DNA from: Eledone cirrhosa
Lineage: Eukaryota
DNA length: 64,000 bases
Reading direction: 5' to 3'
NCBI GenBank assembly: GCA_964016885.1
Contig: OZ024746.1
Location: forward strand, 32,426,001-32,490,000
Positions 1 through 57,484 of this stretch are shown here, piece after piece (the stretch's first letter is position 1; each line of letters opens with the position of its first letter). A program made the position numbers and the translations under genes. Below the pieces are notes generated by a model. The model did no database searches, was not told the DNA's origin, and saw only the letters and a list, made by a program, of their open reading frames with translations.

Positions 1-304
1 AATGAATACATCAAAGAATGAATTTTACAATAGATTGGGAGCACTCAACAAAAAAAGGTTTTCCAGAGTTATTAATATTAATTCAAAATATTAACAAAAT
101 ATATATTCTTGTGATCAAGTATATTTTATTATACATATTTCAGAGGTAGACTGAATCTTAACCATCTGCTGTCAGGGCATGTCATGCATCATCTTATTTT
201 ATCTGATGAGGACGTACTGTTGAACTTAACTCAGTACCTCTGAAATATGTATAATAAAATATACTTGATCACAAGAATATCTATTTTGTTAATATTTTGA
301 ATTA
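1..304 (+). mobile_element. Hammerhead-bearing fold-back element (family A), Penelope-like pLTR remnant
   Basis: 78-148 is a near-perfect reverse complement of 235-304. The plus arm contains a hammerhead and ends in (TA)n. The left arm continues to the window edge. Confidence 0.75.
195..261 (+). ncRNA. Type I hammerhead ribozyme (family A)
   Basis: Stem I TATTTTAT(195-202)/ATAAAATA(254-261); CTGATGA 203-209; stem II GGAcGTACTG/CAGTACcTCT; GAAA 242-245; minimal stem III; AUA cleavage triplet ending at 253. Confidence 0.8.
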
Positions 305-377: not shown

Positions 378-454
378 TAATATCCAAGGAAAACTTGAAC
401 CGGTAAGGTATTTTCCTTGGTTATGTCAAAATTTATAAAACACACTTCGTATTT

Positions 455-505
455 TATCTGATGAAAGCGTACCAAAGTTTTGGTACCCTTGAAATATATA
501 TAATA
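455..505 (+). ncRNA. Type I hammerhead ribozyme (family A, diverged copy)
   Basis: TAT-CTGATGA(458-464)-AAGcGTACCAAA/TTTGGTACcCTT-GAAA(491-494)-TATATA-TA^ATA, then AATAAA. The tail to ~650 is homologous to the reverse complement of 1-148. Confidence 0.75.
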
Positions 506-646
506 GAATAAATATGATTTTATAAATATAGTTTCCATTTATTTAATATCATTGAATATTATACCCCAGAAAACTTGTTGAGTGCTCTGAATCAGTTATA
601 AACATTTATATTTGTTGAATTACCAACAAATTGAATATCCCTTCTG

Positions 647-19555: not shown

Positions 19556-19649
19556 ACCCCTTGAGAAGATCGGCTATTTAAATACCAGGATTAATTTTCA
19601 TTTAGTCCAGAATTAGCCGTCGAAACGGCTTGAGCTCAGCTGTCGGGGT
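19556..19649 (+). ncRNA. Complete type I hammerhead, U3-A8 core variant (family B)
   Basis: ACCCC-TTGAGAA(19561-19567)-GAtCGGCTA...TAGCCGTC-GAAA(19622-19625)-CGGCT-TGAGCTC-AGCTG-TC^GGGGT. The element spans ~19449-19662 between TA tracts. Confidence 0.85.
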
Positions 19650-19659
19650 CTTACTGGTT

Positions 19660-45602: not shown

Positions 45603-47190
45603 TCACCACCACCACCACTACTACTACTATTACAACTACTACTGCTTCTACTACTATCACCACCACCACCATACTACTACTACTACTACTACTACTACTA
45701 TCACCACCACCACCACTACTACTACTATTACAACTACTACTGCTTTTACTACTATCACCACCACCACCATACTACTACTACTACTACGATCACCACCATC
45801 ACTACTACTATTACTACTACAACTTCTACTACTATTACTACTACCACTACTACCACAATCACTACTACTACTACCACCACAATCACTACTACTACTACTA
45901 CCACCACAATCACTACTACTACTACTACCACCACAATCACTACTACTACTACTACTACCACCACTACCACCACTACTACTACCACCACAACTACTACTAC
46001 CACCACCATCACTGCTGCTACTCCTACTACTACTACCACCACCACCACCACCACCACCACACTACTACTACACATTTACTATTTGTTTGTGTTGTTTTCT
46101 CTGTTTTAATGTGTTTGAATCTTCTCTGGAGAACATCAATAATAGATGGATGATATTTACATAGGACAGAAGAGAAACAACAACAACAATAACAACAAAC
46201 ACATCAGAAACAAAATCTAAAAAAAAACAACTAGACACCATTGTGATTTAGCTGACTGTTTCTATCTGTTGTCCGACTCTCTAATTATATTGAAGCCGAG
46301 ATATTATTTAACAGATTCTAGTTTTGCTTTATTGATAGATACACATGTTTCACAGTAATGAGGGGGAACTTTGTATTTCAGGGAGGTTATTACAGGGGTG
46401 GATTAGTAGAATTGGTAGAGGGTTGGAGAAAATAATACATTTGACATGGGTTGGATAGGTTAGTATGGTCTTAACCAGTATTTTATTGCTGTTAAAGTCC
46501 TTCTAAGACAGGTCAGGGGACCAGAAGTTACTCAATATGTTCCATTTTTGGCATGTTCTCTAGAGCTGGATGTTCTTTCTAATGCCAACCACTTTACAGA
46601 GTGTACTGGGTGCAATGTTGTAGAAGTATGAATCAACTTGTGTATGTATGTATGTGTATGTATGTGTGTATATATGTGTGTGCGCACCTGTGATATGCAC
46701 ACATGGGATTGTATGCATATATGCATTCAACTAAATTCAAATGAAAATGTTTGGAATGTCTTACAAATCTTCATTGTATTGCTAATTGGTTAGATTTGGA
46801 GGATGTGACTTGGTTTAGTTTGTTCTTTCATGGGAGACCACAACATTCCCAGGCTTTTATTTAAGTCTGTACTAACATAATCCAGTGTATATATGCTAAT
46901 AATTGTTTCTACTTTCGGCACAAGGCCAGCAATTACCCAGTTCATTACTGGTACTTTATTTTATCGACCCGGTAAGGATGAAAGGCAAAGTTAAACTCAA
47001 CGGGATGCTAATAATAAATACCAATCAACATCTATGACCAACATATAAGAACTGCTGCAAGTTCCTCATTAGTTCATCATAAACACATATGTTTCTATAT
47101 ATCTATTTATGTTTATTAGACCTAGATAGGTAGCATTTATATATCATCATCGTCGTTTTACGTCCATTTTTCCATGGTTATATATATATA

Positions 47191-47666
47191 TATATATATG
47201 AATGTATATATAATGTATTTTGCAATATACTTTATGCTTAATTAAAAGCATTTTGAAGACCGTATGCTATTGTTTTAGAGTAGTGACAAACTCACTTACT
47301 TTAATCTCAGAAAACAAGGGGAGATAAGCCGACAAGGCCTTGTTTCGCATTTTTTGATGCTTATCAAGGCTAACTACTCCCTCCTGTCTACTGAGATCAC
47401 TGATGTTATATTCTTATAGAATTCTAGTAAATAATCAGGAACTGATTATACAGAGCGGTTGCCGGTCAGGCAGAAATTAAAAATTAGAATTGGAGCTCTG
47501 AAATAGCAATATTTGGTTGCTGAGATTAAAGTAAGTGAGTTTGTCACTACTCTAAAACAATAGCATACGGTCTTTAAAATGCTTTTAATTAAGCATAAAG
47601 TGTATTGCAAAATACATTATATATACATTCATATATATATTGCTATTTCAGAGCTCCAATTCTAAT
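47191..47666 (-). mobile_element. Hammerhead-bearing fold-back element (family E)
   Basis: ~120-bp arms at 47191-47310 and 47520-47640 with about two mismatches; second inversion 47483-47508/47641-47666; TA flanks. Confidence 0.85.
47327..47371 (-). ncRNA. Type I hammerhead, U3-A8 core variant (family E)
   Basis: Minus strand AGCC-TTGATAA-GCA(TCAAAAAA)TGC-GAAA-CAAGGCCTTG-TC^GGCT; palindromic stem III. Confidence 0.85.
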
Positions 47667-47794
47667 ATATATATATGTATATATATATACACACATACAT
47701 ACATTCACACACATGTGTGTGTGTGTGTATATGTATATATATATATTTATATATATATATACATTTTAATAAATATATATATATATTTTAATAA

Positions 47795-47929: not shown

Positions 47930-48312
47930 GTAGGTGATTCAGTAAATTACTGGTGGTGGTACCAGTATGAGCACTCAATACACAGACACAGTGTATATAA
48001 GAAAAGACAATGATGTTTCATTTAGATGTATTTATGCTTTTATTAAATATCAACCTTTTATACGTGTGTTTCGCAGATGACTGGCTCAAGATCACCTATG
48101 GAAGCAATGAATCAGACTTCAGCATTGATCTCCTCATCAGACGGATGACCCAATTGTTTTGTTGTTGTTGAATAACCAGTCTGATGAACAGATTGATGCT
48201 GGAGTCAGGTCCATAGCTTCCATAGGTGATCTTGAGTCGGTCATCTGTAAAATGTGCGTTCCAGCTCGACACTCAATTAAAACATAAATACAAGTAAATA
48301 AAACTTCATAGT
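47930..48312. mobile_element. Old family C-related element with two divergently oriented decayed hammerheads
   Basis: Minus core at 48061-48144 and plus core at 48176-48262. Shares GAGTCAGGTC, CTTGAG and GTGCGT with the 9060 element. Confidence 0.7.
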
Positions 48313-48860: not shown

Positions 48861-51800
48861 AGTTTCTTTTATTTGCCACTAGGGCATCAAAAGTGGGACA
48901 AGTACAAAGGGGGGAGTTTACACAAAAAGGCGTCCTCAATAAGGAGGAGGCAATAACAAAATATAAAAATAAAATAAGATATAACAAAAAATAAAATTTT
49001 TAACAAAATCCTCAATAGAGAGGAGGCGCCTTGGGGGGTCGCACACACCCCCGAAAAAAGTGTGCAACCCTTTTCCTCAGGAGCACAGAGAGGGGGTGCT
49101 CCCTCGTTCCTTCCTCTTTTCCACCTACAGGCTTATGTAAAGAGAAGGCCCATTCACACGGGCCATTCTCGCCACTTTCACCCACCTTTCATAAAAACGA
49201 CTGGGGTGCAGCACCTCTCTCTCCATCCTGATCCTTCTTCCGAAATGATATCGGAAGAAACGGACCAGTTGTTGGCCAGAGAGAAAGGTGCCTGACCTCA
49301 GTCCTTTCAGACGCGTCCACCATACAACCTCTTTCGCCATGGCTATTACGCACAGAAACACCGCCTCTGCTTCATCTTTGAAGGGGGGAGGCGGCTTGAT
49401 CATTACAATAGACTCGGTGGTCAACCGGATCGGTCCCACCCTTGACAGCAGTTGTTCGACATAGCCCCACAGATCGGCTACGCCCGAGCAGTGTACCAAT
49501 GCGTGTGCAACGGTTTCCTCGTCGCACACGCATCTGGGACAGATCTTTTTGGCGGGGTCCCTACCCGGGCGCCCGTGTCTGTAGAGCCTTTCTCGAACGG
49601 GTAAAGCCCCTCGGTAGCACTGCCAGGCCAGGGACTTCTGGAAGTTGTCCATAGGTCCCGGGCTGAATGTCCTACCGAACAGGCTGGCCAGTTCGTCCTC
49701 CTCCATGTCTAGGGCTTCTCCAAGGGTGTCGTCGCACCTGCTGCGTACCAGCCCTCTATAGAATGTTGCGGTGGAGTCTCCACTGATAACCGGATCCGCC
49801 TGCCAGAGGGCGGTGAGCCCCTGGGCACACCCAGTGTGCCAGGCGCCCAGTTTTCTCGGTCTTTGCTTGACCCAGGATTGCAGCTCGGTGAGTGAGACGA
49901 GTCTGGGAAAGGTTCGTCTCACAAACGAGGCCCACACCGGTTGTCCGGTGAGGAATACGTAGAGGTGCCGTAGCCTTAATGCGTGTTTACGCATCATTAG
50001 CCACGGCATCCCCAGCCCTCCTTTCGAAGGGTGTTGACAGCAGATGGATCTCCTCACCATAGGAGCCCGCCCCTTCCAAAGGAATTGGAAGAGCGCGCGC
50101 TCCATCTTGGTGAGGGTTTCCCTTGGGCAGGGCACTACGGTCAGGCGGTAGTAGATGACGGACGCTATATAAGTGTTCGCCACCTCCGCCCGACCTTTCA
50201 GGGATAGTTTGCAACTGGCCCACTTCTGGGTCAGTGCAAACACCCTGTTCGTAACCTCCGCCCAGTTTTTCTCCACCTGGAGGTCCGGTCCGAACCAGAC
50301 CCCGAGCAACTTCACCGGGCCCTCCGTCCAGCGTCCGACGACGCCATCGGAGGGCATCGGTCTGCCCCTCCACGTGCCGAGTTGCAAACCGATCGACTTG
50401 TCCCGGTTCAGCTTAGCCCCTGTGAACTTTTCGTACTCCTCCAGTAAGGTGCCGACCGCCTCGATTTCGGAGGCCGTCGACACCATTACTGTCACATCAT
50501 CGGCGTAGGCTGACACCGCTTTCCGCAATCCCGGTTCCAAAGGGATGCCCTGCAACAACTCCAACTTCCGCAGTAGTGGCTCGAGAGTCAACACATACAG
50601 AAGGGAGGAGAGAGGGCACCCTTGTCGGATGGACCGCGCGATTTTGAACGGCTCCGAGAGGTAGCCGTTCACCTTGACCCTAGAGCAGATGCGGCTGCTG
50701 TGCATAGCAGTGATCCAGCCCCTGAAAACGGGTCCGAAGCCTGCCGCCGCTAGCACCGCATCCAGGTAACCATGGTCGACCCTATCGAACGCCTTAGATT
50801 GATCCAAGTTGATCAGAGCCCCACCAAAGCCGGGTTCGTTCCCAACCCTCTCTATGATGTATTGCATGAGGTGGAGGTTGTCATGGATGGACCTGGACGG
50901 GATAGCGCATGTCTGCGCATCTCCCACCAGGTTGCCCACGACAAGCGCCAACCTCTTTGCTAGCACCTTGGCCAAAATCTGTAACTCTGTATTTAGCAGA
51001 GTTATGGGCCTGAAGTTACTTATTTCGTCCCCCTTGTTCTCGTCCTTCCTCACTAGCATGACTACGCCCTTGGTCACAGTACAGGGAATTCTCCCGTTCT
51101 GTTGCCAGTTGCAGTAGACCGCCTCGAGGAGATCGGGGAACAAGTCCGGCATAGCTAGATATAATTCGTAAGGAAGACCATCGAGACCCGGGGATTTGCG
51201 TTTGCCGCATTGGCCCAGCACGTCCTCTATCTCAGCGGCCGAAACCGGCTCCTCGCAAGACTTCGCCTCCCTGTCCGAGAGGCGCGGCAGGCCGTCGAGG
51301 TATGGACCGAAGTCCACGTTTCCAACCGGCTCCCCGCCCCTCCCGAACAGTCGGGCAAAGTGCCTTTGAAAGGCCTCACACATCTGCTTAGGCTCAAGAA
51401 TCGCCCGTCCATCCAGGTCTCGCAAAGACCGGATGGTGGATTTAGTTCCACTGTTGGCCTCTGTCACGCGGGCCCAGCTAACAGCTTTGGCCCCCTCGTT
51501 CCCTAGAGCACGTATTTTACTTCGGACAACGCAGCCTTCGTGCTTCGCGTCGAAAAACTGGCTCAAAGCCGTTCTCGACGCTAGCACTCTGGCCACGTCG
51601 CCGCTTCTAATTGCCTCTTCTACTCTATCTATTAGCTCCCTTTCCTTCCTATTCCTATCCGCAGCTAGAACCTTACTAAATTCAATCGAGACTACTCTAA
51701 TCTCTCTCTTTAGAGATACCCACCACCTGCTGTTGACGATCGCTCCAGTCAACCGTTCCTTAACTAACGTACTAATCCGATTCCTGTAGGCTCTACTTGC

Positions 51801-52360
51801 CGGCAAGGACAAGTTGAGCTTCCAGTAACCGGGGCCCTGTCTATGCGTTCTATCAAGGTTGACCATGCAGGTCACCAACTTGTGGTCTGAATAGCCAACC
51901 ATGAGCATTTCTGGACAACTTAAAAAGTCCCTGTCCTTATTTCTAACTAAAAATCTATCTAGGTACGATCTAGATGATCCGCTGCGATTTGACCAAGACC
52001 AGGTTGGCACCGTCGGAAAATCTAGTCGAAATCTATCGGCCAGGTCAAATCGGCCGAGTAACCCCTTGAGGCTGTTGCACCCCTCTCTATCGGGACATGC
52101 CCCTGCATAGTCCCAACGTGCATCCAGGATACCATTCCAATCCCCCACTAAAAGCAGGGAACGGGACGTCCCTAGAAAAGACTCCAGACGCTGGAAAAAG
52201 TCGGGCCGCTCTGTCCCAAAAGGGGCATATGCGGCTATCAGCCTAAGGGCTCTACCTTCACCACTGCCAAGGTCCAGCACCACCAGTCGACCCCCTGGGT
52301 CCAAGTGAACTATCTGTGTTGCAAGGCCCATATGTTTTTGCAGCAGAACGACAACCCCAC
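48861..52360 (-). mobile_element. Young 5'-truncated Tx1/L1-clade LINE
   Basis: 16-bp TSD GGTGGCTATATAGATA at 48845-48860 and 52361-52376; AATAAA near the 3' end. Confidence 0.95.
49125..52360 (-). CDS. Tx1/L1 ORF2 (partial APE endonuclease, RT, CCHC zinc finger); open frame, N-terminus truncated
   Basis: GDWN, SYLDRF, SDH, GYWKLN, SPGLDGL, DQSKAFD, QGCPLS, YADD, CPRC..E...H....C. The first ~35 aa of the listed ORF come from the flank. Confidence 0.93.
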
Positions 52361-52942
52361 GGTGGCTATATAGATAGATAGATAATATGTCATATATATG
52401 CTGAAATGCATGAAAATATGAGCGTAGCATATTTGAATGTATATGTTTAATTGAGAGTGTAGACATGTGTGTATATATATGTTGCTACATTCCTAGTTGA
52501 CTTGACTAAATCTATTATTCATATGATTTGCTGCTTATTCAAGCATGAAGGCTTTTGTGTCAAAAATAATCTATTCAGTATTACAGCCAATATGGTCTAA
52601 AATGGCTTTGTTTCATGGTTAATGGAATTATTCCAACCATTCTACCCTCATCATACCTCACTCTTTTATTGTATTCTCTTATAGTTTTAACAAATGCACA
52701 GCAGAAGGTGGCAAAAGAACAAAATAAATTTATTAATGAATTTTTTTTTCATTGAGATTTCCAAACGAAAATAATTAATGATTGGACATCCACAAATAAC
52801 CATTCTCTTAATTACTCCAGTTATATATTAGTGAGCAATTTTGCACTGAAGAATTTTCTTTTCATATGTGTTGTGTGTGTGTGTGTGCACACACACACAT
52901 ATATATACATACACACATATATATATACACACACACACATAA

Positions 52943-54170: not shown

Positions 54171-54254
54171 CATTAGAGGCAAGTTGACCATGTCTTGCTC
54201 ATATAGAACTGCTTCTGGCTAGGTTTCTATAGCCAGATGCCCTTCCTAACGGCA

Positions 54255-56965
54255 ACCACATTTACAGTGTGGGTTGGGTGCTTTTTGTCGTGACACTTAC
54301 ATGACCACTTTACAGTGTGGGCTGGGTGCTTTTTGTTGTGACACCTACACAACCACTTTACAGTGTGGGCTGGGTACTTTTTGTTGTAACACCTACACAA
54401 CCACTTTACAGTGTGGGCTGGGTACTTTTTGTTGTGACACCTACACAACCACTTTACAGTGTGGGCTGGGTGCTTTTTGTTGTGACACCTACACAACCAC
54501 TTTACAGTGTGGGCTGGGTACTTTTTGTTGTGACACCTACACAATCACTTTACAGTGTGGGTTGGGTGCTTTTTGTTGTGACACCTACACAATCACTTTA
54601 CAGTGTGGGCTGGGTACTTTTTGTTGTAACACCTACACAATCACTTTACAGTGTGGGCTGGGTACTTTTTGTTGTGACACCTACACAATCACTTTACAGT
54701 GTGGGTTGGGTGCTTTTTGTTGTAACACCTACACAATCACTTTACAGTGTGGGCTGGGTACTTTTTGTTGTGACACCTACACAATCACTTTACAGTGTGG
54801 GTTGGGTGCTTTTTGTTGTGACACCTACACAATCACTTTACAGTGTGGGCTGGGTACTTTTTGTTGTAACACCTACACAATCACTTTACAGTGTGGGCTG
54901 GGTACTTTTTGTTGTGACACCTACACAATCACTTTACAGTGTGGGCTGGGTACTTTTTGTTGTGACACCTACACAATCACTTTACAGTGTGGGTTGGGTG
55001 CTTTTTGTTGTGACACCTACACAACCACTTTACAGTGTGGGCTGGGTACTTTTTGTTGTGACATCTACACAATCACTTTACAGTGTGGGCTGGGTACTTT
55101 TTGTTGTGACACCTACACAATCACTTTACAGTGTGGGCTGGGTACTTTTTGTTGTGACACCTACACAACCTCTTTACAGTGTGGGCTGGGTACTTTTTGT
55201 TGTGACACCTACACAATCACTTTACAGTGTGGGCTGGGTACTTTTTGTTGTGACACCTACACAATCACTTTACAGTGTGGGCTGGGTACTTTTTGTTGTG
55301 ACACCTACACAATCACTTTACAGTGTGGGCTGGGTACTTTTTGTTGTGACACCTACACAATCACTTTACAGTGTGGCCTGGGTACTTTTTGTTGTGACAC
55401 CTACACAACCACTTTACAGTGTGGGTTGGGTGCTTTTTGTTGTGACACCTACACAATCACTTTACAGTGTGGGCTGGGTACTTTTTGTTGTGACACCTAC
55501 ACAATCACTTTACAGTGTGGCCTGGGTACTTTTTGTTGTGACACCTACACAACCACTTTACAGTGTGGGCTGGGTACTTTTTGTTGTGACACCTACACAA
55601 TCACTTTACAGTGTGGGCTTTGTACTTTTTGTTGTGACACCTACACAATCACTTTACAGTGCGGGTTGGGTGCTTTTTGTTGTGACACCTACACAATCAC
55701 TTTACAGTGTGGGCTGGGTACTTTTTGTTGTGACACCTACACAATCACTTTACAGTGTGGGCTGGGTACTTTTTGTTGTGACACCTACAAAACCACTTTA
55801 CAGTGCGGGTTGGGTGCTTTTTGTTGTGACACCTACACAATCACTTTACAGTGTGGGCTGGGTACTTTTTGTTGTGACACCTACACAATCACTTTACAGT
55901 GTGGGCTGGGTACTTTTTGTTGTGACACCTACACAGCCACTTTACAGTGTGGGCTGGGTACTTTTTGTTGTGACACCTACACAACCACTTTACAGTGTGG
56001 CCTGGGTACTTTTTGTTGTGACACCTACGCAATCACTTTACAGTGTGGGCTGGGTACTTTTTGTTGTGACACCTACGCAATCACTTTACAGTGTGGGCTG
56101 GGTACTTTTTGTTGTGACACCTACACAATCACTTTACAGTGTGGCCTGGGTACTTTTTGTTGTGACACCTACGCAATCACTTTACAGTGTGGGCTGGGTA
56201 CTTTTTGTTGTGACACCTACACAATCACTTTACAGTGTGGGCTGGGTACTTTTTGTTGTGACACCTACACAACCACTTTACAGTGTGGCCTGGGTACTTT
56301 TTGTTGTGACACCTACGCAATCACTTTACAGTGTGGGCTGGGTACTTTTTGTTGTGACACCTACGCAATCACTTTACAGTGTGGGCTGGGTACTTTTTGT
56401 TGTGACACCTACACAATCACTTTACAGTGTGGCCTGGGTACTTTTTGTTGTGACACCTACGCAATCACTTTACAGTGTGGCCTGGGTACTTTTTGTTGTG
56501 ACACCTACACAATCACTTTACAGTGTGGGCTGGGTACTTTTTGTTGTGACACCTACACAACCACTTTACAGTGTGGGCTGGGTACTTTTTGTTGTGACAC
56601 CTACACAACCACTTTACAGTGTGGGCTGGGTACTTTTTGTTGTGACACCTACACAATCACTTTACAGTGTGGGCTGGGTACTTTTTGTTGTGACACCTAC
56701 ACAACCACTTTACAGTGTGGGCTGGGTACTTTTTGTTGTGACACCTACACAATCACTTTACAGTGTGGGCTGGGTACTTTTTGTTGTGACACCTACACAA
56801 CCACTTTACAGTGTGGGCTGGGTACTTTTTGTTGTGACACCTACACAACCACTTTACAGTGTGGGCTGGGTACTTTTTGTTGTGACACCTACGCAATCAC
56901 TTTACAGTGTGGGCTGGGTACTTTTTGTTGTGACACCTACACAATCACTTTACAGTGTGGGCTGG
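54255..56965. repeat. 48-bp minisatellite (~56 units) amplified within an RTE 3' UTR
   Basis: Unit CACTTTACAGTGTGGGCTGGGTACTTTTTGTTGTGACACCTACACAAT. Flanks 54180-54255 and 56980-57040 match the RTE UTR (reverse complement of 10381-10670). Confidence 0.95.
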
Positions 56966-57484
56966 AGATATTTTGTTGTAAGGGTGGTGTGGACAGGAGT
57001 GTAAGGGTGGGGGTATAGTGGTTAAGAGGTGCCTACTAGATGTATGTTTGAGTCCATGCGCATAGAAAGGCGTGTCTTCTGTATTACTGCATAACACCAA
57101 AGATCTCAATATGTAAGATAACACAAAGTAAGAACCATCATGCTTATTGCCTTTACTAACACAATGCAATCAATCCAGTGTGTATATAGCTGTGCATATA
57201 TATATAAATATTGATTTTTAATTTAGACACAAGGCCAGCAAATTTTGAAGCAATACAAAGTTGATTAAATTAACCCTAGTACTTAAACGATACTTTATTT
57301 TATCAACCCCAGAAGAATGAAAGGCAAAGTTGGCCTTGGTGGGATTTGAACTCAGAATGTAAAGAGCAAGAACAAATACTGCAATGGCTTTTAATTTGAA
57401 GGTCAACCAATTTTGTCAATCCTCATACATGTATAAATATTGATAACTCAAAGCACAACCCAAATGTGCCTAGTCCCTTATTAC

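What the first reader, a model, noticed from the sequence alone, without database searches (positions are those of the whole stretch)
47191..47666. Young family E element: second U3-A8 hammerhead and a double inversion
A compact 45-nt ribozyme has core UUGAUAA and the 12-nt palindromic stem III ACAAGGCCUUGU, which is dimer-competent. Its sequence is dissimilar to family B, so U3-A8 occurs in two families. Besides the 120-bp arms, a 26-bp internal piece is re-copied inverted at the outer end, implying two template switches.
Basis: partly seen in the sequence, partly recalled or inferred. Interest (0 to 1): 0.72.

Follow-up and report, generated by a model that had tools for sequence, protein, structure and literature searches.

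The report
Penelope-type retrozyme with dimer-gated hammerhead
This is an ordinary young copy of a 319-base protein-free repeat that carries a hammerhead RNA motif predicted to cut only when two copies pair, and its mirror-image layout with a short tail at one end is one inversion of the kind already described for Penelope-like retrotransposons, whose enzyme likely pasted it in.

Summary
The hammerhead is real: type I, minus strand 47371-47327, core UUGAUAA, palindromic stem III, predicted cut 47331|47330. All three stems covary across subfamilies. It lies in a 319-bp head-to-tail unit with at least 1,205 hammerhead copies in the genome: a non-LTR retrozyme.

The 'double inversion' is wrong. 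The 26-bp piece is the start of the next unit, i.e. the Penelope (PLE) 'tail', so there is one inversion joint (47512|47513). The layout is the commonest one in the family: 48 of 78 insertions are head-to-head, and 32 of 33 scorable pairs carry exactly one tail. A Neptune-like PLE in the same genome has a U3-A8 hammerhead (10,850 exact copies) and follows the same rule (13 of 13); it is the likely mobiliser.

U3-A8 cores, dimer hammerheads, inverted copies and tails are all in print. The scan has reported such retrozymes before on other DNA, including this genome.

One extra: folding predicts that the monomer is self-locked by a covarying helix that uses U3, and that tandem units release it. 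No cleavage or expression was shown.

The parts
47194..47512 (-). Long arm: one complete 319-nt retrozyme unit (unit positions 1-319), subfamily E1
   Evidence: 5 of 319 differences from the natural unit of L027; period 319
47327..47371 (-). Type I hammerhead: stem I 47371-47368 with 47330-47327, core UUGAUAA 47367-47361 (U3-A8), stem II 47360-47347, GAA 47346-47344, palindromic stem III 47343-47332, C17 47331
   Evidence: sequence, descriptor scan, covariation
47304..47397 (-). Extended stem I that carries the hammerhead, with an internal loop next to the core
   Evidence: fold; helices 1-3 of alignment A2 are 96-98% paired with compensatory changes
47337..47370 (-). Predicted alternative 'lock' helix: GCCUUG (includes U3-U4-G5) paired with CAAGGC of stem III
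47512..47513 (.). The single head-to-head inversion joint (unit position 1 against unit position 196, 0-nt gap)
47513..47636 (+). Short arm: 5'-truncated unit, positions 196-319
   Evidence: the two arms differ at 4 of 128 positions
47637..47666 (+). PLE-type tail: positions 1-30 of the next unit, contiguous with the short arm, ending TTCTAAT
47180..47193 (.). (TA)n target run at the tail-less end
   Evidence: sequence
47667..47690 (.). (TA)n target run at the tail end
   Evidence: sequence

Best explanation
This is one insertion of a 319-bp protein-free tandem repeat with a U3-A8 type I hammerhead motif (a non-LTR retrozyme), laid out head-to-head with one tail between two (TA)n runs, and likely pasted in by the reverse transcriptase-endonuclease of a Penelope-like element. 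Shown: the unit, the copy numbers, covariation of all stems, two fixed 3' ends 26-30 nt apart, one joint, exactly one tail per inverted pair, TA targets, and the same rule in a resident Neptune-like PLE. Inferred steps: (1) tandem copies are transcribed; (2) adjacent units fold into a double hammerhead and release unit-length RNA that may be ligated into a circle, while a lone unit is predicted to fold into an inactive form; (3) a PLE enzyme, probably dimeric, nicks both strands of a TA run and starts two cDNAs on one multimeric or circular RNA, one at the tail site and one at the tail-less site; (4) the two 5'-truncated cDNAs are joined, mostly through short microhomology, giving the mirror-image insertion.
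For: Unit and family; no ORF over 46 codons in any frame of a unit trimer. Hammerhead under selection: 97.6% of 638 cells paired, 6 of 29 pairs with two-sided changes, against 34-48% for slid controls. Two different perfect stem III palindromes occur (AGGCCT 40 and GAGCTC 18 of the 100 listed, counted by eye). Architecture: 48 of 78 head-to-head; 32 of 33 pairs with both ends at the fixed sites have one tail (binomial p = 8e-9); 12 of 12 in subfamily E3 (by eye); 7 of 9 in older copies (by eye). TA targets: 54 of 57 tail ends and 42 of 51 tail-less ends abut TA-rich DNA, against 2 of 18 other ends. One template source: both arms belong to the same subfamily in 48 of 48. Arms share minor variants in 5 of 23 E1 and 9 of 26 E2 insertions, against 1.2 and 2.2 for random pairing. 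Not a fold-back copy: the tailed arm is the longer one in only 16 of 32. Partner: L153 has a 938-aa frame with RT and GIY-YIG between repeats carrying a UUGAAAA hammerhead with a palindromic stem III. It has 10,850 exact hammerhead copies; 13 of 13 scorable pairs have one tail (by eye); its tail also ends TTCTAAT; and in L054 an E1 arm is joined head-to-head to its 3' end with a 5-nt overlap. Literature: PMC3846280, PMC8557442, PMC11167929, PMC4209133, PMC7229834.
Against: No cleavage or expression data. The family shows no sequence homology to the L153 PLE repeat beyond the hammerhead core and the last 7 nt. The PLE tail is 64 nt against 26-30 here, and the genome holds many PLE families (10,595 GIY-YIG candidates, 150 scored; 40 loci inspected), so the partner is not pinned. 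The L054 chimera is one case and has two tail-type ends. 15 of the 48 inverted insertions have at least one end off the fixed sites; 1 E1/E2 pair and 2 older pairs break the one-tail rule. None of 126 5' breaks falls at the cleavage site (2.8 expected), so integrated copies give no trace of cut linear RNA. Only a small share of variants is shared within an insertion (3-7%), and gene conversion could explain it. In the one in vitro PLE system, hammerhead cleavage was not needed for insertion and start sites did not differ between strands (PMC11167929). Eight of nine predicted Xenopus retrozyme dimers did not cleave (bioRxiv 10.64898/2026.07.22.740005).
Confidence: 0.85

Rival explanations
1. 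Two template switches: after making the inverted arm, the polymerase jumps again to re-copy an internal 26-bp piece at the outer end.
For: In this copy alone the piece does appear twice, in opposite orientations.
Against: The same arm-CATTCATATAT-piece joint is the normal unit joint in direct tandem arrays. 14 of 30 single-arm insertions end with the same piece without any inversion. An optional 30-40-bp tail is the described PLE signature (PMC3846280, PMC8557442).
Confidence: 0.02
2. The template is an uncut linear tandem transcript and the hammerhead plays no part in making new insertions. It is kept only for RNA turnover, or as a relic of a PLE terminal repeat. This differs from the best reading only in steps 2-3.
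For: 0 of 126 5' breaks at the cut site, and 113 intact read-throughs of it in the arms. PMC11167929 found cleavage unnecessary in vitro and unprocessed RNA the main substrate.
Against: A ligated circle gives the same read-throughs. Compensatory changes in all stems across four subfamilies show selection on the fold among the copies that spread.
Confidence: 0.35
3. The inversion arises by self-priming or fold-back on a single cDNA or antisense template (as proposed in PMC3846280), with the tail made when the endonuclease resolves the intermediate.
For: Arms share subfamily and some variants. Most joints overlap by a few bases (34 of 48 gaps negative).
Against: A simple fold-back copy cannot be longer than, or reach beyond, its template. 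The tailed arm is longer in 16 of 32 and shorter in 16 of 32. In this copy neither arm contains the other.
Confidence: 0.1
4. A MITE-like DNA transposon with 120-bp terminal inverted repeats, or a satellite spread by DNA recombination.
For: Inverted arms in TA targets; tandem arrays of up to 12 units (L232).
Against: Arm lengths and joints vary freely (5' breaks spread evenly over the unit), the two ends are unequal, 30 of 78 insertions have no inverted arm, and copies are dispersed over many contigs.
Confidence: 0.02

Closest known systems
Metazoan non-LTR retrozymes (Cervera and de la Pena 2020, PMC7229834, parts 2-4 of 6 read; Li et al., bioRxiv 10.64898/2026.07.22.740005, parts 1-3 of 5 read)
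   Same: Low-GC, protein-free tandem unit of 170-400 nt with one type I hammerhead per unit; no LTR features; coexists with PLEs; dimer-dependent cleavage as shown for the axolotl 330/350-nt repeats.
   Different: U3-A8 core; a 12-nt loop-less palindromic stem III rather than 1-2 bp plus a tetraloop; a predicted self-locked monomer, whereas that paper predicts most metazoan circles leave the ribozyme free (some mussel circles excepted); mostly dispersed insertions of one to a few units with PLE-type inverted arm and tail. Circles and expression not shown here.
EN+ Penelope-like element insertions (Arkhipova 2013, PMC3846280, passages; Craig 2021, PMC8557442, passages; Frangieh 2024, PMC11167929, parts 1-2 of 4)
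   Same: 5' truncation, partial tandems, an adjacent inverted 5'-truncated copy head-to-head, a 30-40-bp tail often at only one end, two internal RT start sites, AT-rich or (TA)n targets.
   Different: No ORF; no detectable homology to the one resident PLE repeat tested; one tail per inverted pair is near-strict here (32 of 33), where the papers say 'optional' or 'often'.
U3-A8 minimal hammerheads of Cercyon PLEs in Schistosoma mansoni (Cervera and de la Pena 2014, PMC4209133, parts 1-2 of 4)
   Same: Same core covariation (about 1,300 hits there), palindromic stem III region, dimer model, pairs on opposite strands 100-700 bp apart.
   Different: Here stem II is a canonical 4 bp, stem I is long, stem III is 12 nt, and the motif sits in a non-autonomous tandem unit.

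Membership tests
Type I hammerhead ribozyme | Core N3-UGA-N-N8-A, GAAA, UH with a 3-8 Watson-Crick pair, three helices, stem I open | tested here: met
   U3-A8 pair; covariation
Type I hammerhead ribozyme | Match to an Rfam hammerhead model at gathering score | tested here: not met
   no family hit in the window; also none for the C3-G8 motifs at 203 and 458, so the models miss these variants
Type I hammerhead ribozyme | Self-cleavage at GUC | not testable with these tools
   folding only
Non-LTR retrozyme | Head-to-tail unit of 150-450 bp with one type I hammerhead per unit | tested here: met
   period 319; natural tandems
Non-LTR retrozyme | No coding capacity, low GC | tested here: met
   longest stop-free frame 46 codons in a unit trimer; AT-rich unit sequence
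Non-LTR retrozyme | Many dispersed genomic copies | tested here: met
   332, 602 and 1,205 exact pattern hits of rising looseness
Non-LTR retrozyme | Expressed as linear and circular unit-length RNA | not testable with these tools
   no RNA run on offer
PLE-mobilised element | 5' truncation with adjacent inverted copy, head-to-head | tested here: met
   48 of 78
PLE-mobilised element | Two 3' ends that define an optional tail | tested here: met
   unit positions ~4 and ~30
PLE-mobilised element | AT-rich or microsatellite targets | tested here: met
PLE-mobilised element | Sequence homology to the terminal repeat of an autonomous PLE | tested here: inconclusive
   40 GIY-YIG loci screened: family matches at 70-87% in L134, L153 and L166 lie apart from the long ORFs; the L153 repeat shares only the hammerhead core and the last 7 nt; most PLE families not screened
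Autonomous PLE | RT plus GIY-YIG ORF | tested here: not met
   none in the element; present in the candidate partner L153

The most novel reading that the evidence does not exclude
This retrozyme family has a built-in copy-number switch. U3 of the swapped core, with the 5' strand of stem I, pairs with the stem III palindrome and shuts the ribozyme in a monomer or circle, and only a second unit frees it. The lock helix has been kept by compensatory changes across subfamilies, which would answer for this family how animal retrozyme circles avoid cutting themselves. Together with the near-strict one-tail rule, it would give a 319-nt substrate for testing whether a PLE enzyme dimer primes both target strands from two assigned start sites on one RNA.
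Probability: 0.4. Interest if true: 0.5.

Novelty: new member of a known kind. Interest (0 to 1): 0.3.

Why it matters
Its value is as a test system. The PLE link of animal retrozymes has been argued from co-occurrence and repeat phylogeny; here a retrozyme shows the PLE integration footprint quantitatively. The predicted lock and release gives a cheap, specific experiment on how a circular retrozyme RNA keeps its ribozyme off.

Tried and rejected
Rfam scan: no hit. Run search: no RNA holder listed. Laying four contig sets on the locus gave nothing usable on ends or expression. A 5'-break hotspot at unit position 133 seen was an alignment artefact of using the E1 reference for E2 copies; it went away with a second reference. 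Enrichment of 5' breaks at the cleavage site: not found (0 of 126). In the best-hit sample one arm, in L007, starts at position 183. The positional sample requires an intact hammerhead, which biases this test. A C3-G8 version of the family motif: 0 hits. A shared upstream body among the 5' flanks of single-arm copies: none, only common repeats. My first scans for a second U3-A8 hammerhead in the window missed it; a looser scan found it. U3-A8 as existing in general to make the lock: rejected, since the +19561 hammerhead folds active as a monomer and the PLE hammerhead shows no such helix. Lunse et al. 2017 was not held and is cited only through the review PMC6765202 (passages). Look-ups of earlier findings by place and by sequence returned nothing. 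Supplements were not read; the supplementary hammerhead alignments of PMC4209133 and PMC7229834 may hold similar motifs or locked folds.

Full report
Observation. On the minus strand, 47371-47327 forms a type I hammerhead: AGCC, core UUGAUAA, stem II GCAU-CAAAAA-AUGC, GAA, stem III ACAAGGCCUUGU, C17 at 47331, then GGCU. The inverted arms are 47190-47317 and 47513-47640 (128 nt, 97%), and 47483-47512 recurs inverted at 47637-47666. A second U3-A8 hammerhead of unrelated sequence lies at +19561. Rfam reports nothing in the window.

The element. A DNA search of the own genome gave 131 matches from 40 scored of 1,986 candidates, the best at 98-99%. The loci show a 319-bp head-to-tail unit. Exact patterns give 332 copies of the commonest 37-mer, 602 with a free stem II, and 1,205 with the stem III centre free as well; the reversed controls give 0. 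There are at least four subfamilies: E1 (this copy; 1.5% from the majority base), E2 (2.2%; 92% identical to E1), E3 (95% to E1) and older copies. The unit has no frame over 46 codons. The window's long arm is one whole unit, 47512 to 47194.

One inversion, not two. In direct tandems the end of a unit is followed by CATTCATATAT and then unit positions 1-30. The window's short arm reads positions 196-319 and then 1-30 without a break, so the 26-bp piece is the start of the next unit. The only joint is 47512|47513.

Survey. I took the first 100 listed of the 332 places as a positional sample: 87 loci, of which 8 duplicates of the same insertion and 1 apparent segmental duplicate were dropped, leaving 78. 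Pieces under 85% identity or more than 22 nt away were left out of each insertion. 48 of 78 are head-to-head and 30 are single-armed. 3' ends fall at two sites: in the AT run at the unit border, or at position ~30. Of the 48 pairs, 32 have one end of each kind, 1 has two tails, none has two tail-less ends, and 15 have at least one end elsewhere (p = 8e-9 for 32 of 33). Single arms split 14 tail-less, 14 tailed, 2 other. 5' breaks are spread evenly, with 0 of 126 at the cleavage site. In 20 E3 loci, 12 of 12 scorable pairs have one tail. In 20 older loci 7 of 9 do, with one pair of each like kind. Both counts are by eye. Fixed-site ends abut TA-rich DNA in 96 of 108 cases, other ends in 2 of 18. 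The sample misses insertions that lack an intact hammerhead.

This anatomy is in print for Penelope-like elements. An adjacent inverted 5'-truncated copy and a 30-40-bp tail often at only one end are described in PMC8557442 (passages). A 31-bp tail optionally on one of the inverted repeats is described in PMC3846280 (passages). PMC11167929 (parts 1-2 of 4) shows in vitro that the tail is the stretch between two internal RT start sites, that both target strands are nicked and extended at AT-rich DNA, and that the protein is predicted to be a dimer. It also found no strand difference in start sites and no need for ribozyme cleavage.

Template. Both arms belong to the same subfamily in 48 of 48 pairs, and the tailed arm is the longer in 16 of 32, which excludes a simple fold-back copy. 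Arms share minor variants more often than random pairing (5 of 23 against 1.2; 9 of 26 against 2.2). That fits one RNA or one source locus; later gene conversion is not excluded. 46 of 78 insertions have an arm longer than one unit plus tail, so the template is a multimer or a circle; these data do not tell which.

Partner. A GIY-YIG search gave 10,595 candidates, 150 scored; I inspected 40 loci. L153 carries a 938-aa frame with RT, a CxxC-type linker (the Neptune label is recalled, in line with PMC8557442) and GIY-YIG. It lies between repeats with a U3-A8 hammerhead (UUGAAAA, stem III ACCGGU). That motif has 10,850 exact copies. In 22 loci (30 less 8 duplicates), 13 of 13 scorable head-to-head pairs have one tail (by eye). 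Its tail ends TTCTAAT as here, and in L054 an E1 arm joins this PLE's 3' end head-to-head; my rough chance estimate for such a joint among 30 single-arm copies is 0.001-0.005. Against it: no further homology, a 64-nt tail, and two tail-type ends in L054. It is the likely partner, not a shown one.

Ribozyme. On 22 natural copies from four subfamilies, 97.6% of cells pair, with two-sided changes in stems I, II and III; slid controls pair 34-48%. The rows are related, so these are few independent events. The monomer's lowest-energy fold is not the hammerhead: GCCUUG, including U3-U4-G5, pairs with CAAGGC of stem III. The predicted share of active monomer is about 2e-4, and about 0.014 with a C3-G8 core in silico. 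This lock dominates in 20 of 22 copies; one exception is a natural U3C copy. The dimer's best fold is the double hammerhead in 18 of 22. The lock helix is 94.8% paired, with two-sided changes at 2 of 7 pairs. Circular monomers are locked (0.94-0.99). In 5 of 6 natural tandems tried (one had no scorable pair) the two stems III pair with probability 0.93-0.995, with both cores free in the three E1/E3 tandems and misfolded in part in the two E2 tandems. The window's copy has one hammerhead and is predicted locked. All of this is prediction without tertiary contacts or proteins.

What is known. U3-A8 was reported in Schistosoma PLE hammerheads, about 1,300 hits, with opposite-strand pairs (PMC4209133, parts 1-2 of 4). 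Dimer dependence is reviewed in PMC6765202 (passages). Non-LTR retrozymes, their circles and the proposed PLE link are in PMC7229834 (parts 2-4 of 6) and bioRxiv 10.64898/2026.07.22.740005 (parts 1-3 of 5). The first says the ribozyme in most animal circles must be blocked by something other than self-pairing; the second found 8 of 9 dimers inactive. My seven paper searches showed no report of this family or of a U3-dependent lock; subscription papers and supplements were not seen. PMC7151607 (one passage) gave nothing on U3-A8 rates. Earlier AI notes of this scan, read after I had formed my reading, describe similar retrozymes with one long and one short end, one of them a 318-nt repeat in this genome; they are not independent support.

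Verdict. A real, ordinary insertion of a non-LTR retrozyme with the standard PLE footprint; the double-switch reading fails. New member of a known kind, interest 0.3. The predicted lock and the near-strict one-tail rule are the testable extras.

Noticed in passing
window 19556-19650 (+): Second U3-A8 type I hammerhead (core UUGAGAA at 19561, long stem II, near-palindromic stem III) in a short stub between TA runs; folds active as a monomer.
   Followed up: partly
window 195-265 and 450-510 (+); 17731 (-): Three C3-G8 hammerheads of PLE type. The one at 203 differs by one base from a motif in GIY-YIG locus L172.
   Followed up: no
L089, right of the element (G000:C2 near 8390400): The 5' joint of an E2 copy runs straight into a degenerate (TTAGGG)n tract on the cDNA strand, as if telomeric repeats were added to the cDNA end or it was joined to an interstitial telomere tract.
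   Followed up: no
L054:2146-2241 and L086:1678-1917: Family E arms directly joined to terminal pieces of the L153-type PLE.
   Followed up: partly
L153; L193-L222: Very abundant young Neptune-like PLE with a U3-A8 hammerhead (10,850 exact copies). Many copies are short head-to-head stubs whose 5' breaks cluster 33-45 nt upstream of the core, perhaps the RNA start.
   Followed up: partly
L232:1498-5324: Tandem array of about 12 older units, with more units beside it: a candidate source locus for multimeric transcripts.
   Followed up: no
window 49125-52484 (-): Uninterrupted 1,119-aa frame that looks like an endonuclease-RT of a LINE (L1/Tx1-like by recall; not scanned).
   Followed up: no
window 48075-48270: Imperfect inverted repeat with CTGATGA motifs on both strands, possibly a decayed head-to-head PLE stub.
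   Followed up: no
window 54250-57018: Long tandem array with a period of about 42 bp that leaves two frames open.
   Followed up: no
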